Below, piece after piece: positions 5,936 to 15,094 of a DNA stretch of 64,000 bases. Under the pieces are notes generated by a model, which saw nothing but the letters and a program-made list of their open reading frames with translations, had not been told where the DNA came from and did not search any database. The DNA is from Podarcis liolepis (lineage: Eukaryota): NCBI GenBank assembly GCA_965112155.1, contig OZ218103.1; one strand, given 5' to 3'. The position numbers and the translations under genes were made by a program. Positions within the stretch are counted from its first letter, which is position 1. The number at the start of each line of letters is the position of its first letter.

Positions 5936-6739
5936 GTAAGGTTTGACTGTGGGAGACCCCAACGCCCACTCACCTGCTCACCCATGAAATCTTAGAAGGG
6001 ACCCCCTCCATCTGAGGCACCTTGCAGAATTGCGTCCTGGAATCCCAGTCCTATTCATCATATCAGTTGCAGAATTCAGCATCCTAAAGCCTCAGCCCAG
6101 AAACAGGATTCAAAGCAGTTAGTTACCTGGTGAAATTTCATGGGGGTGAATATGATTTGTGGGGCTCAGGGTGTGGTCAGTACACTGCATAGCTCCTTGC
6201 CCCTTGGCGTGACTGGAAGCTGCTCACACACTTTTTCTTGATTGACATCATAAATGTGGGTGGCAGAAGCACTTTTTTATGTGGTGCAGAATAGGGATCC
6301 TGTGTCTGGAGTGCTGAGCATACTGAACCCTCATGCCAGGACTGTGGAACCTGTGGCCCTCCAGATATTGTTTGACAGCTAATGGTGCAGCAATAAAACT
6401 GCTAGCACATTTGCAAAGCTAAGCAGCGTCTGGTCTGGTTTCAAATTGGATGGGGGACCACGTGCTGAGATTCCTGCATTGCAGGGGGTTGGACTAGATG
6501 CCCCTTGGGATCCCTTCAATTCTGTGATTCTACAACTCCAACTTCCACCAGCCCCCGTTGATGTGGCCAATGGTCAGGAATGATGGGGAATGTTCTCCCG
6601 CAACATCGATTCCCCGCCCCTCCATTGCCCATACCTGGCTCCAGAAAGCCAGGATTGGCCAATTCCCCGTTCCATATTGGCAACCTTGCTACCTGGTGAG
6701 GACATTTCCCTTGACCCCAGAACCTTGTTCCCTCCTCAG

Positions 6740-6983
6740 GCATCCTCAAGAAGAAGTGCTTGCCGCCCATCAGCGAGAAGAACAGCATCCAGCGGATCCA
6801 CAACAAGCTCTCCAGCTGCCGCTCAGGGATGGTGTCATCGCACGGCTCTTCGGGGAGCGACGGCAGCCGTGGGGGAGGGCCCCCGCGCCCCCGCCAGACG
6901 CTACAGGAGCAGCTCAATGGCCTTACGCCCATCACCATGAGCATAAAGACTGGCACAGTGGATGAGGACTCTTCAGGCTCCGA
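6740..6983 (+). CDS. CELSR2: CELSR2 penultimate coding exon (ILKKKCLPPISEK...LQEQLNGLTPITMSIKTGTVDEDSSGSE)
   Basis: CCTCAG acceptor, GA|GTGAGT donor; matches GILKKKCLPTISEK..LQEQLNG..MSIKAGTVDEDSSGSE. Confidence 0.95.
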
Positions 6984-7837
6984 GTGAGTATGGCTGAGCC
7001 TTCTCCCTGGGGGGCGATGCCCTCCACAGCCCACTCGCCTGAGCCCGCCGCCTCTGTGGAGCCCCCTCGCCCACACCATGCCTGGTGCATCGGATCCTCC
7101 GGGCTGCGACTCCGCTGTGTCTCACCTGTCCCCAGGCTGTGCCTCTCTCAAAACGTCTCCCTGTCTGCTGCCTTGTAGCTCCTTAGATCCTTTGTAGCTT
7201 TCGCTAAATGTTCTTGCCGTTCCACTGGACCTTATTTTCACACGGGCTTGCTAAGAATCTCTACTTCTATTTCCTTTGCCTTTTCCACTCACGGGCTAGA
7301 TCCTGACCTGGCACATGGCCAGGAGTGTACCTGTTTCTTCAGGAGCCACCCCATGCCCCACACCCCAATTTGGAAAAGGTGTCAAGGCAGCCTTAAAAAA
7401 CAGGCCGTGTCAGCCGCCCCTTTGCCGCCCCTTGTAGGCTGGGAGGGGGATTTATTGGAATGTGTGGGGAGCATGGGAACCAGTTTGCCCAGTGGGATAT
7501 TGGGAGAAGATAGCATCCCGGGGCTGAGGCTAGAAGCTATAGATGAGACATCCTTTCCTCTGGGCAATGGGCTCTGGTCCTCTCAAATGCCATGTCTTTT
7601 CCTGTGTTCTTGTAAGATGCTCAGGGACTGGGCACAAGCCTGCCTTGCAGATCCTGACTTGAGCAAGTGGGTTGGGCTAGGAGCCATCCTGACCCTGGGC
7701 AGGGCTGGGTGGATGTGGGGGACGGGGGGACGCTGTCCTATTCTAACTTCTTCCTCAGCTCTCTGGCACTAACCCAGCCTCTCCTCCCTTCTCTGTCTTT
7801 CTCTCGTTCTCTCCCCTCTCGCTTCAATCTCGCCCAG

Positions 7838-7865
7838 ATTTCTGTTTTTTAATTTCCTCCATTAA
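7838..7865 (+). CDS. CELSR2: CELSR2 terminal coding exon, canonical (E)FLFFNFLH-stop
   Basis: Long pyrimidine tract + CCCAG; GA|A TTT CTG TTT TTT AAT TTC CTC CAT TAA, identical to the recalled human CELSR2 C-terminus EFLFFNFLH. This identifies the gene as CELSR2 rather than CELSR1/3. Confidence 0.93.
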
Positions 7866-7975
7866 CACGCGAGCCCCAGGGGGGGTGCTTTGCTCAAACC
7901 TGCTCACGACCATGCTCATGTGTTTGTGTTTCCCCCCCGTCCCCCCGTCTCGCTTTGTGTTTGATCACTGAGCAG

Positions 7976-7997
7976 GAGCGATGAAACCTCAATCTGA
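7976..7997 (+). CDS. CELSR2: Candidate alternative CELSR2 terminal exon, (E)SDETSI-stop (class I PDZ ligand)
   Basis: Second pyrimidine tract (7921-7962) + GAGCAG acceptor; phase-2 splice gives GA|G AGC GAT GAA ACC TCA ATC TGA. Confidence 0.65.
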
Positions 7998-10900
7998 CGC
8001 CAACGCCTGCACCAGGCTCTGTTTCCCTTGTGCTTTGGCCAGTCCGGGAGCCAGGATTGCTCTCAAACCGCAGCGAGGAATGTTGTCTCCTTCAGCCCAG
8101 CCCGGCCCAGGGAGCCGGACCCACCATACCTAGTGCCAAATGAAAACCGAGCTGCCGCCCCAGCACCTGGGGGGGAGGGGAACAGCAGGTCCCAGGAGGC
8201 GGACCTACTTGAACCGATGCACTTTGGATCATTGTGAAAACAGACAAACAAGAAACACAAACTCAACCACCTCCACGTCTTCAGGGATTTTCATGCTTTG
8301 TTGCCCAGTCTGGAACTGCTGTGTGTCTGGAATATTTTTCTCTCTTTCTTATCTATCAGAATTGGGCTGGGGGAGCCTCAGCAGTAGCCATGTGCCCAGG
8401 CTTCTTGGAAATGCATTACCTGTGAAGATGCTTGCATATCTGACAATGGGGATGAGCTAGGAGCCTGTGCACTTGAAGATGGCTGCCGCCAGGGGGCACT
8501 GAAAATCGTAGGTTTTAGCATGCGAGGCAAATGTAGATGGCATCTTCCTCCTCAAATGGTAACTTGGAATTAAAGCCTGAGGGCGTGACAGACTTGGCCA
8601 TGCGGGAGGGACCTGCATGAGACCTATGCTACGTGCCGCTTGGAGAAAGTAGGCAGGCTTTGCATTGAAGCTGACTCCTTCGGAGGCTCTAAGACCTCAG
8701 TTGCATATAAACAAAACCAGGAGCGAGCCCTCATCCCCCTGCTCTGCAGTGTGTGTGTGTATCATAATCATGCTTTTTATGACCCAGTAGCATGGGCTTA
8801 AGCACACCTCCCACGGTGCAACTAAGGCACGGTAAAACAATGTGCAGGTCAGTCTCTGGCTATTTGGCACATAGGAAAGTTTGGAGCCCGAGATCTTGGT
8901 TGTGCCGTGCCAATCAACCATAGAACTGAGAAGGAAAAGATCGTCCAAATAGCTTTCCCTGGACTCTGTAGACATACACTAGCGCTCCCTGCAGGTGCGC
9001 AGTACCACCTCATCTCAAGGAAAATAAAAGGCTTTTCCTGATCTTACAGTTTTAACAGAGTGGTTGGATTGTTACAGAAACCCAGAGCCATTGTCGCAGG
9101 ACGCGAATCGCCATGATGCTACCTACAGCCGTGGACTGGACAGATTTGCTGGGTCTGCTGTGGATCTAGCCCCTTCCCTGGGCCAGCCTCAGTGCCCCAG
9201 ACTGCGCAGTGGGGCCAGGGGCTTAGGACCTCCCCAGTGGGCCACTGTTGGCATCCGTGGAAATGCTCCATCCTGGACCAGGGCTAACATCCTTTTCAAC
9301 CGTTTTTTGGTTGCGACAGCCACTCCTCTCCAAGCTCAGCCTGCCAATCCAGTGACTCGGCCCCGTGGGGATGCTCTGAGAGGCAGCCCACCAAGGTGCT
9401 GAGCGCCGTGGGTGTGGCCTGTTGAGCCGTCAGCCCATGCTGCAATTATTTTCGTAGACAATGACAAAAAGAAAAAAGTCCCACCTCCCTGCTCCTCTCA
9501 GCCAATCAGCACCTGGTCCACGTGCTGCCAGGCTGGAGCCGGGATGCTGCCTTGATGTCTCTCAATAGCGCCTGGCTCTCATGCCAACAGGGTGCTGCCT
9601 TTCTGCCTCAGAAGCCTTCATTTTTCTACACTCAGCCAAGCCTGATGCCTGCTCATAATGGGGATTTTCATGCTGGGTCCTTTTGGAAAGTACTTTTTTA
9701 TAACGTTCCTTGGGGTGGGGGTGGGGGGAGAAGAGAGATTTTTCTGATAAGGGAGTTGAGGGAAGAGGGGGAGGGCGGCCGGGGGAAGAGGGGTGAAGGC
9801 ACTGTTTATTTTGATGTTGTGGGTTTTTTTTAAAAAAAATATTTGACCACTGCTGAAGGATGTTCTAATTTAAAAGAGATGGAAAGCCCCTTAGGGGGCT
9901 ACATCTTTAGATTCGTAGCAATGTTAAGTCTCGTTAGCCGGGGCGCAAGATACGATGCGCTTGAACTGACTTGGTCGAGGTTTGCACAATGAGGAGTTAA
10001 TTGAGACTTGACCCATTGCTATGGTCTGGCTTGTCAAAGGATATGGTTCCAAAAAACACACCCCAAGGCTTCTGTGTTCGTTGCCTCTAGGAATCTTGGC
10101 CATTGCCGTCAGGCCTTTTTAGTGGCCTCTGTCCTTGCCAATTCCTATCCTTTTCTTGGAATGTTTTAACATGGATGTGATTCTCATGAACCTGTGTAAT
10201 GTCAGCCTGGCACTTTAGCAGCAGCCGCCCACAACGCTAAGCAGACAAGGGGGCTCAGTTCCAGCCTCTTTAATACATGGATTAGCCAGAGAGAGTCTTG
10301 CTTCCAACTAGTGTCCCCGGTAAGCCCATTTAAGTGAAAGGAGAAACTGGTGTTTCCCTTGCTTCTCTATCCAAAACAATAGTATCTGACTAATTTCCAC
10401 CTGCAAGTCTATGCTGTCTTTGACATCCAGCCCCACTTGGGACAACTTATTCTCATATCTAAAGCAAAATGGAGACCTATATTGAAATAAGGGTGGTCCA
10501 GACAGGCAAGGGCCCACAATTCCCCTTGTGTGATGCTATCTGATGGGTATTCCAGCACTAAACACAGATCAAGCAATCTCTGGACTTCCTGTCTCCTCCC
10601 GTAGGTGACCGAGGCTTCTGAGCACAGGGAACTGGGTGCAGCCCTTGGTCCTTGCTGGTCTACCAAATCATCTAGAACAAAAGCTGCATGTGCTGATCAA
10701 CTTTAGACACACGGAACAATCAGAACCAATTCAGAAATGGACTAGGAGAGGCAACAAGAGGAGCTTACCCTCTCAGACTTTGCATTGCTAACTCCAAGCG
10801 AGAGCAAGCAACGTCCCGGATCTCTAGACTCCAGTGAAGTATCTGCAGAAGTCGAGGAATACCTTCTGTGGTGCTGAATGATGGCTTGGAGGGAGGACCA

Positions 10901-13842: not shown

Positions 13843-14090
13843 CTGTCTGTTGAAATGCAGGCGCTTTAAGGGGGGAGAGAAATTCAAGAGATCGGCATGT
13901 AGGAGGTCAGAACAACTGTGATGCTTTGGAAAAGGCCCATGTCCCAATAGTAGAACTAATGCATGCAAAAGGTCCCAGGTTGAATCTCCAGCATCTACTG
14001 GTAGGACTGGGAAGGACCTCTGTCTGAAACTCATCCCCAGTGCAGGCGGTTCTGAGTTAAATGGGCCAATAGGCAGTTCCTAAAAGAAGT

Positions 14091-14401
14091 GGGACGCGGG
14101 TGGCACTATGGGTTAAACCACAGAGCCTAGGACTTGCCGATCAGAAGGTCGGCGGTTCAAATCCCCGTGACGGGGTGCGCTCCCGTTGTTTGGTCCCTGC
14201 TCCTGCCAACCTACCAGTTCGAAAGCACGTCAAAGTGCAAGTAGATAAATAGGGAAAGTAAATGGCGTTTCCGTGCGCTGCTCTGGTTCGCCAGAAGCAG
14301 CTTAGTCATGCTGGCCACATGACCCGGAAGCTGTACGCCGGCTCCCTCGGCCAATAAAGCGAGATGAGCGCTGCAACCCCAGAGTCGGACACAACTGGCC
14401 A
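14091..14401 (+). mobile_element. Sauria (POM-type) SINE, near full length, in a PSRC1 intron
   Basis: GGGACGCGGGTGGC..GGTTAAACC..GGCGGTTCAAATCC tRNA-like head and BovB-like tail GAGTCGGACACAACT. Confidence 0.85.
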
Positions 14402-15094
14402 GGACAATTTTAGTTCAGCCATTTCACTCTGTGTTTCCCGGCTTGGTTTGGGGGTTTGTTCATGGTTTCCAGGGATGGAAACGGCTTGGAACAAAGTTGG
14501 AAATTGCAGCTGAAGTTGTTTAGTTGAAACCTGAATGATCTGAAGGTGTGTACACACCCACACACCAAGTGATGGCACCTTGAGAGCCAGTCGTAAATAA
14601 ATATGCAAATAATGGGAGGAAGGGAACACAGTCCAGTGGCAGAGCAGTGTACTGATGCAGGTCATGCTAATGGACCTATATCTGATTGAGCACCAGCATT
14701 TGCTCCACAGGAGTCCAGCCATATCATTCACAGCTGAGGGACGCTTGGGTGTCCTGCCTTCCTAGAAGCACCTTTGCAAACAGGACCACTAGGAAAGGGC
14801 CACAGCAGAGCATCTACCTTGCATGCAGGTTGCCCCAGGTTCAATCCCTGTCACATCCAGGTAGCCTTGGGAAAGATGCCTGGAATCCTAGAGAGCTGCT
14901 TCCATTCACTCTAGGCTGTACTGAGCTAGAAGGACCAGCAGTCTGACTACATAAGGCAGGTTCCTATGTTCCCACCAGCTTCCTTCAAAACCCTCTCAGT
15001 GTTTTCTTCCCTTTCCTCCCAGAAGATCCTTCCTGCCAGAACCCACTCCCAAACCCAGCTTAAGTTGCTAGAACTTCTGGAACTGCATGCTTAC

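What the first reader, a model, noticed from the sequence alone, without database searches (positions are those of the whole stretch)
6983..7997. Alternative CELSR2 terminal exon encoding a PDZ-binding tail (-SDETSI*)
Seen: the phase-2 donor at 6983 can join two acceptors. 7838 gives the familiar EFLFFNFLH*. 7976, with its own pyrimidine tract, gives GAG AGC GAT GAA ACC TCA ATC TGA = ESDETSI*. Intron retention gives a third end, SGSE* (GAG TGA). Established: E-T-S-I at a C-terminus fits the class I PDZ ligand (S/T-x-hydrophobic), and I recall ETSI-type ends on CELSR1 isoforms. Inference: splicing may switch PDZ-scaffold binding of this planar-polarity receptor on or off, possibly retaining an ancestral Flamingo/CELSR tail.
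Basis: partly seen in the sequence, partly recalled or inferred. Interest (0 to 1): 0.7.

Follow-up and report, generated by a model that had tools for sequence, protein, structure and literature searches.

The report
Ancient docking tail spliced onto CELSR2
This reptile's gene for the cell-polarity receptor CELSR2 can be spliced to an ancient tail, shared with sharks, birds and many mammals and already in automatic gene annotations, that likely docks the receptor on scaffold or recycling proteins, while its two other possible endings lack that docking tip.

Summary
Confirmed. The window holds the 3' end of a squamate CELSR2. The phase-2 donor after 6983 gives EFLFFNFLH* (acceptor 7838), ESDETSI* (7976) or SE* (intron kept). 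The 6983^7976 GT..AG junction appears in 3 of 8 RNA runs laid (three studies, one coded organism); 6983^7838 in 0 of 8 (tissues unknown); the intron is covered in all 8. Both spliced tails are annotated from cartilaginous fish to primates (112 FLH, 92 ETSI among 303 redundant records). ETSI is the old ending: the CELSR1-like paralog in this genome has the same intron and EGSNETSI*, invertebrate Flamingos end ETSV/ETSL/ETEV, and fly Flamingo has a PDZ-tail isoform whose tip binds Snx27. So FLH, not ETSI, is likely the CELSR2 novelty. Binding and function of the CELSR2 tail are untested; SNX27-retromer recycling is my best guess. Extras: a CU-rich tract at 7838 suggests PTBP1-type repression; tandem acceptors shift the -5 residue between S and D; the mouse record reads DSDEPSI. 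Ten paper searches found no description for CELSR2; the scan had no earlier CELSR note. Known kind, in databases, modest interest.

The parts
6740..6983 (+). Penultimate coding exon of CELSR2 (GILKKK...DEDSSGS), ends in phase 2
   Evidence: 95% identical to Gekko and Varanus CELSR2; one strong match in the own genome; upstream junction spliced in all 8 runs (loose ends at 6738)
6984..6989 (+). Splice donor GTGAGT; read-through gives GAG TGA (stop 6985-6987), ending SGSE*
   Evidence: junction start
6984..7975 (+). Last intron (992 nt to the distal acceptor), often kept in RNA
   Evidence: covered in 8 of 8 runs; in the raw stranded runs X23 and X24 at about exon depth and on the gene's strand only; unbranched contigs run from spliced upstream exons into it in X8, X10, X14
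7767..7837 (+). Branch-point-like CACTAAC (7767-7773) and very CU-rich pyrimidine tract of the proximal acceptor; candidate PTBP1-type silencer (inferred)
   Evidence: 17 overlapping TCTT/CTCT/TCTC/TTCT motifs in 60 nt, reached by 2 of 2207 YAG sites on the + strand; no substitution listed in 7726-7866
7838..7865 (+). Proximal last-exon start, encodes (E)FLFFNFLH*
   Evidence: tail annotated from chimaera and sharks to primates; junction not seen in 8 runs
7881..7978 (+). AG-free stretch with branch-point-like CTCAC/CTCAT, pyrimidine tract and tandem GAG-CAG-GAG of the distal acceptor
7976..7997 (+). Distal last-exon start, encodes (E)SDETSI*, a class I PDZ-binding motif by sequence
   Evidence: junction 6983^7976 GT..AG in X2, X24 and X3; same tail in frog, caecilians, lungfish, rays, birds, mammals
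7998..9700 (+). Shared 3' UTR, end not mapped
   Evidence: laid only to 8400; contig lengths in X1, X2, X3 imply continuation to about 9700 (inference)

Best explanation
The last intron of this reptile CELSR2 gene has a distal splice acceptor at 7976 that RNA reads show in use and that ends the receptor in an ancient ETSI tail, which likely binds PDZ domains such as that of the recycling adaptor SNX27 and so would keep more receptor at cell junctions, while the FLH ending and the kept-intron ending lack the motif. Shown: acceptor, junction, reading frame, conservation, same intron in the CELSR1-like and CELSR3-like paralogs. Inferred: (1) ETSI is the ancestral last exon and FLH a jawed-vertebrate CELSR2 addition 138 nt upstream; (2) the tail binds SNX27-retromer as the fly Flamingo tail does, with E at -3 and a phosphorylatable S at -5; (3) the three-way choice is regulated, probably by repression of the CU-rich proximal acceptor, which pushes splicing to the distal site or leaves the intron in. 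Odds by step: real isoform about 0.95, binds some class I PDZ domain about 0.85, SNX27 recycling as the main consequence about 0.5, regulated by tissue about 0.55.
For: Junction 6983^7976 with GT..AG ends: contig bubbles in X2 (depth 12.9 against 29.7 for the kept intron) and X3 (11.4 against 27.6), one raw read in X24 with 72 nt on the shorter side; three studies. One strong copy of the exon in the own genome. 30 of 120 full-length cluster representatives end ETSI, 46 FLH-type, 9 SE, 35 other; 92 ETSI and 112 EFLFFNFLH among 303 redundant records, 38 without the anchor. Among related lizard reads 27 substitution sites fall in 6984-7725 (742 nt) and 2 in 7726-8158 (433 nt) (boundaries chosen after the fact). 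Paralog at G000:C11:58383788(-) has GA|GTGAG and an acceptor 556 nt on giving EGSNETSI*; annotated CELSR1 of elephant, eel and mormyrids ends GSNETSI. Hemichordate and crinoid ETSV, Ciona ETSL, brachiopod ETEV, nemertean ETCV. Fly Flamingo: PDZ-tail isoform ends DDETTV and is pulled down by Bazooka (PMC3899232 passages); its motif binds Snx27 and sets junctional level (PMC6370945). SNX27 prefers acid or phospho-S/T at -3 and -5 (PMC8313361 passage).
Against: No binding or trafficking test for CELSR2 exists in what I found, and I ran none. The junction is absent from 5 of 8 runs, including X1, the one RNA-like run laid from the organism whose DNA matches the window best; the two contig bubbles have only 29-30 nt a side, under the tool's 31-nt bar, and no DNA run was laid as control. 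The 7838 junction was not seen, so a switch between two spliced forms is not shown in this lineage. The mouse record ends DSDEPSI and Perognathus DSDPAAT, without T at -2, and most teleost records lose E at -3: the motif is dispensable in some lineages. In the fly, deleting the motif lowers junctional level but not asymmetry, so the effect may be modest. Nearly all records are automatic predictions.
Confidence: 0.55

Rival explanations
1. The ETSI tail is real but serves polarity or synaptic scaffolds (Par3, DLG/MAGI/Scribble type) rather than SNX27; splicing decides whether CELSR2 is anchored, not whether it is recycled.
For: The fly PDZ-tail isoform is pulled down by Bazooka/Par3 (second-hand); other adhesion GPCRs use their motifs for DLG1 or SHANK. 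The -5 residue is S, not acidic, in the lizard form.
Against: PMC5022056 calls the Bazooka link of unclear physiological relevance; the Snx27 link has in vivo genetic support in the fly; CELSR1 was found with SNX27 in a proteomic screen as cited in PMC6370945.
Confidence: 0.3
2. The regulated event is mRNA dosage: the last intron is held back (nuclear, not translated) and the two spliced tails are secondary; SE* is not a real protein end.
For: The kept intron is the commonest form in the runs laid while the upstream intron is spliced; the read-through stop is an automatic product of the donor consensus and is not conserved in all records (ECVSDH in turtles, EG in some mammals); PTBP1-controlled retention of last introns is known (Yap et al. 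2012; only its reference line seen, content recalled).
Against: Does not explain why both ETSI and FLFFNFLH are kept nearly letter for letter from sharks to primates. It can hold together with the best explanation.
Confidence: 0.3
3. ETSI is a constitutive ancestral end, and the function under selection in CELSR2 is the newer hydrophobic FLFFNFLH tail (a gain of a trafficking or degradation signal), not loss of the PDZ motif.
For: EFLFFNFLH is identical in 112 records with 5 variants, stays where ETSI decays (mouse, several teleosts), whereas read-through would remove the PDZ motif without any new exon.
Against: No known ligand for this tail was found; its F/L/N codons are pyrimidine-rich, so part of the constraint may act on the RNA; I had no DNA of other vertebrates to test synonymous change (one search found none).
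Confidence: 0.25
4. The distal site is a chance cryptic acceptor or the junction an artefact.
For: Loose class I ends arise from 2.3% of AGs; few junction reads.
Against: Same junction in three studies; same peptide in 92 records and in the paralog.
Confidence: 0.02

Closest known systems
RefSeq/GenBank predicted CELSR2 isoforms, e.g. Anolis carolinensis XP_062834482.1 (ESDETSI) beside XP_062834481.1 (FLH); Lacerta agilis X1/X2/X3 (FLH/ETSI/SE); chimpanzee PNI54331.1 (DDETSI)
   Same: Identical tails and the same three-way choice.
   Different: Automatic models without described function; no human record was among those listed.
Drosophila Flamingo/Starry night isoforms with and without a PDZ-binding tail (Wasserscheid et al. 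2007, seen only as cited in PMC3899232 and PMC5022056; Strutt et al. 2019, PMC6370945)
   Same: Same receptor family; isoform-specific acidic E-T-x-hydrophobic end (DDETTV); binds Snx27 and Bazooka.
   Different: Binding is shown in the fly, not for CELSR2; the fly tail has D at -5, the lizard form S; how the fly isoforms arise was not seen; FLH has no fly counterpart that I saw.
Vertebrate CELSR1 GSNETSI ending
   Same: Same phase-2 last intron, read-through stop and ETSI micro-exon with a tandem acceptor.
   Different: No FLH-type exon in the CELSR1-like intron of this genome; the CELSR3-like paralog has the intron but ends RSEGHS without the motif.
Tail splicing of other adhesion GPCRs (latrophilin-3 and -2; PMC10830413, PMC12236479 seen as listings, PMC10592476 as passages)
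   Same: Alternative C-termini with or without a PDZ-binding motif.
   Different: Those swap long tails and alter G-protein coupling; here only the last 1 to 9 residues change.

Membership tests
CELSR2 (ADGRC2) orthologue | Closest named relatives are CELSR2; CELSR1-like and CELSR3-like genes lie elsewhere in the genome | tested here: met
   (87-95% to squamate CELSR2); paralogs on C11 and C2
Alternative 3' splice site event | Distal acceptor joined to the donor in RNA | tested here: met
   3 of 8 runs
Alternative 3' splice site event | Proximal acceptor joined to the same donor in RNA of this lineage | tested here: inconclusive
   0 of 8 runs, tissues unknown, contigs drop rare forms; annotated in other squamates
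Class I PDZ-binding motif | S/T at -2 and a hydrophobic last residue at a free C-terminus | tested here: met
   T-S-I-stop, conserved; motif definition from established knowledge
Class I PDZ-binding motif | Binds a PDZ domain | not tested
   no assay possible; no complex prediction run
SNX27-retromer cargo | Acidic residue at -3 | tested here: met
   E at -3; rule from PMC8313361 passage
SNX27-retromer cargo | Acidic or phosphorylated residue at -5 | tested here: inconclusive
   S in (E/D)SDETSI, D in the DDETSI variant (7 records); phosphorylation unknown
SNX27-retromer cargo | Surface level depends on SNX27 and the motif | not testable with these tools
   shown for fly Flamingo only
Regulated last-intron retention | Intron kept in strand-specific RNA while neighbouring introns are spliced | tested here: met
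   X23, X24 raw reads and contigs; only the one upstream intron boundary was in view
Regulated last-intron retention | Level changes with tissue or a splicing factor; fate of the RNA known | not testable with these tools
   run tissues are not given
PTBP1-repressed splice site | Dense CU-rich tract at the repressed acceptor | tested here: met
   motif set recalled
PTBP1-repressed splice site | PTBP1 binding and derepression on knockdown | not testable with these tools
   none

The most novel reading that the evidence does not exclude
The reference CELSR2 ending (FLFFNFLH) is a neuron-biased form made when a PTBP1-type block on the proximal acceptor lifts; most other tissues make the ancestral SNX27-binding ETSI form or hold the intron back. 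A tandem acceptor conserved in CELSR2 and CELSR1 further tunes the tail between a phosphorylation-dependent (S at -5) and a constitutive (D at -5, fly-like) binder. Mouse Celsr2 has lost the motif, so mouse work and reference cDNAs have missed a trafficking control that primates keep.
Probability: 0.25. Interest if true: 0.65.

Novelty: new member of a known kind. Interest (0 to 1): 0.42.

Why it matters
CELSR2 is tied to neuronal wiring, cilia and human disease, and its cytoplasmic partners are poorly known; a paper comparing Celsr1 and Celsr2 names unknown cytoplasmic partners as a possible cause of their different junction stability and does not mention PDZ (PMC9878842 passages). If the ETSI form is common, studies with the FLH cDNA test a receptor without its ancestral docking tip, and the fly Flamingo-Snx27 mechanism becomes directly testable in vertebrates with three short peptides. 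The apparent loss in mouse would mark a mouse-primate difference. It is a known kind of control (spliced PDZ tails on adhesion GPCRs) and the isoform is already in databases, so the surprise is moderate.

Tried and rejected
Metagenome scan for vertebrate DNA of the donor region: 0 matches, so no codon-level comparison across vertebrates. Logan ORFs ending SGSE (13 of 15 examined) mostly carry upstream intron sequence and so are genomic; rejected as evidence of retention in mammals. No RNA holder on record was listed; 8 of 24 listed runs were laid, the two single-cell runs and six DNA-like runs were not. The 100-nt skip 7542-7643 (AT..TG, CCA between) is an indel between organisms, not splicing. 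Acceptors 7973 and 7979 were not seen in RNA. A third protein search for more rodent tails gave no new muroid distal-exon record, so the mouse loss rests on one predicted protein. No solved structure matches the exon. The own-genome PDZ search (78 matches) was not followed up; no complex prediction was run because a class I peptide would dock by likeness to solved pairs and could not pick the partner. The human transcript table (PMC11039983) gives no exon coordinates in the parts searched, so its dominant unannotated variant cannot be assigned to a tail. In one search the rows for 927 and 1652 are tblastn starts, not true acceptors, and were ignored; the 6741 row is one base off. Yap et al. 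2012 is not held. Earlier notes of this scan: none on CELSR.

Full report
Gene and anatomy. The first 8 kb of the window carry the last exons of a CELSR2 on the + strand (exon map). The exon 6740-6983 is 95% identical to Gekko and Varanus CELSR2 and has one strong match in the 1.57-Gb own genome. It ends in phase 2 (GA|GTGAGT). The two best-looking acceptors of the intron are these two: 7838 has a CACTAAC branch-point-like site and 87% pyrimidines in 60 nt, 7976 follows 91 AG-free bases. The distal site is a tandem GAG-CAG-GAG.

Chance. 209 of 9142 AGs in the window give an S/T-x-[ILV]-stop and 23 give [DE]-[ST]-x-[ILV]-stop within 20 codons. The motif alone is therefore weak evidence; the case rests on RNA and conservation.

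RNA. 24 runs were listed, none of the holders on record as RNA; I laid 8 (six contig sets guessed to be RNA, two raw stranded RNA-seq runs read at about 12%). The joint 6983^7976 with GT..AG ends appears in X2 (contig depth 12.9) and X24 (one read, 72 nt on the shorter side) and in X3 (11.4): 3 of 8 runs, three studies, all coded organism B, which differs from the window by a few percent. The bubbles in X2 and X3 have 29-30 nt a side, just under the tool's bar for bridging. The joint 6983^7838 appears in 0 of 8. The intron is covered in all 8: depth 29.7 and 27.6 in X2 and X3, unbranched contigs in X1, X8, X10 and X14, and in X23 and X24 at about exon depth on the gene's strand only, while 5 and 8 reads show the upstream junction spliced. 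Contig depth is a poor measure, but it points to roughly 30% distal splicing where it is seen. Tissues are unknown, no DNA run was laid, and X1, from the organism whose DNA matches best, shows only the kept intron at low depth. Substitutions among these relatives number 27 in 6984-7725 and 2 in 7726-8158 (p about 3e-4 with boundaries chosen after the fact), so both acceptors sit in a constrained block.

Conservation. Of 120 full-length cluster representatives (best 120 of 180 hits) 46 end FLH-type, 30 ETSI, 9 SE and 35 otherwise. Adding cluster members (at most 15 listed per cluster) gives 303 redundant records: 112 EFLFFNFLH, 39 ESDETSI, 30 DSDETSI, 15 DSSDETSI, 7 DDETSI, 1 DSSGETSI, 16 E, 38 without the anchor, the rest scattered. 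Both tails occur in sharks and rays, salamanders, turtles, squamates, birds, marsupials and primates; ETSI also in bichir, gar, lungfish, caecilians and tailed frog. Anolis, Podarcis, Lacerta and Crotalus have both as RefSeq predicted isoforms. Exceptions: mouse DSDEPSI, Perognathus DSDPAAT, hedgehog DSDGTSI, Carettochelys ESDETST, and teleost ends such as CNTSM that keep T-x-hydrophobic but lose E at -3. Guinea pig, squirrel, marmot, porcupine and gundi keep ETSI. No human record was listed.

Which end is old. In this genome the CELSR1-like gene (G000:C11, donor at 58383788, - strand; identity inferred from tail similarity and the GSNETSI end of named CELSR1 records) has the same phase-2 donor with a read-through stop and an acceptor 556 nt on that gives EGSNETSI*, with a second AG 6 nt further that would give DNETSI*. 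The CELSR3-like gene (G000:C2) has the same intron position and a last exon ending RSEGHS*, without the motif (identity inferred). Named invertebrate Flamingos end SNETSV (Saccoglossus, Antedon), SNETSL (Ciona), HETEV (Lingula), SNETCV (Tubulanus) and HATEV (Terebratalia), and a Solemya model stops at SSDSE, the read-through point; several other CELSR-like representatives end otherwise or are truncated. The PDZ tail is thus bilaterian-old, and FLFFNFLH was seen only in CELSR2 of jawed vertebrates.

How it likely works. Fly Flamingo has an isoform ending DDETTV that Bazooka PDZ domains pull down (PMC3899232 and PMC5022056, passages citing Wasserscheid 2007). Its motif binds Snx27; deleting it lowers junctional Flamingo and makes it insensitive to Snx27 loss, without changing asymmetry (PMC6370945, passages and second half of Results). 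High-affinity SNX27 cargo has acid or phospho-S/T at -3 and -5 (PMC8313361 passage). ESDETSI has E at -3 and S at -5; the DDETSI variant made by a tandem acceptor has D at -5 like the fly. I infer that ETSI-CELSR2 is recycled by SNX27-retromer and that the FLH and SE forms are not. This is inference; scaffold binding is a live rival, and the FLH tail may have a gained function of its own.

Regulation. The proximal acceptor looks stronger yet was not used in these runs, and its tract is extremely CU-rich (17 motifs in 60 nt; 2 of 2207 YAG sites reach that), the pattern recalled for PTBP1 silencing. A human survey (PMC11039983; passages, one section, supplement part 1 and Table S5 rows) reports that an unannotated CELSR2 variant with a changed protein dominates. 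NM_001408.3 (FLH ending recalled, not from a call) is 46-95% of transcripts in nine brain sample groups but 4% in cerebellum, 6% in oesophagus, 17% in stomach and about 0-1% in intestine, where the 34-exon NSTRG.3707.1 makes 77-100%. The table does not say where the variants differ, the datasets differ between tissues, and neuron-rich cerebellum goes against a simple neuronal rule. It is a lead only.

Literature. Ten full-text searches found no description of a PDZ-tail isoform of CELSR2. Passages read in reviews and CELSR papers (PMC13197933, PMC10592476, PMC9878842, PMC13604961, PMC13080459, PMC11446786, PMC4110287, bioRxiv 2023.04.12.536513 and 10.64898/2026.07.03.735260) do not mention it. 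Subscription papers, theses, figures and bioRxiv supplements were not searchable; PDZ or SNX27 interactome tables there could list CELSR tails.

Verdict. Real, used and ancient; present in automatic annotation; a vertebrate member of a known kind (spliced PDZ tail of Flamingo and of adhesion GPCRs); function untested. Interest 0.42.

Noticed in passing
window 7542-7643: A 100-nt stretch of the last intron is replaced by three letters in organism B contigs (X2, X3, X8, X10), and X14 lacks 7563-7599; indels between related lizards, not splicing.
   Followed up: partly
G000:C11:58383788 (-), loci L011-L013: CELSR1-like paralog with the same last intron, read-through stop and tandem acceptors that would give EGSNETSI* or DNETSI*, the same S/D change at -5; use in RNA not tested.
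   Followed up: partly
G000:C2:83879167 (+), loci L014, L015: CELSR3-like paralog with the same intron position; last exon ends RSEGHS* and the nearest fitting AG is an AAG at +486.
   Followed up: partly
proteins P0142, P0094, P0182, P0067: Lineage decay of the motif in predicted isoforms: mouse DSDEPSI, pocket mouse DSDPAAT, hedgehog DSDGTSI, pig-nosed turtle ESDETST.
   Followed up: partly
window 7838-7865: EFLFFNFLH is identical from chimaera to primates and has no known ligand that I found; it may be a motif in its own right.
   Followed up: no
window 8569, 9023, 12751: Poly(A)-signal hexamers; RNA contigs appear to run to about 9700, past the first two, so the 3' end is unmapped.
   Followed up: no
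window about 6450-6530 and 14090-14410: Stretches that look like squamate interspersed-repeat fragments (resemblance recalled, not tested).
   Followed up: no
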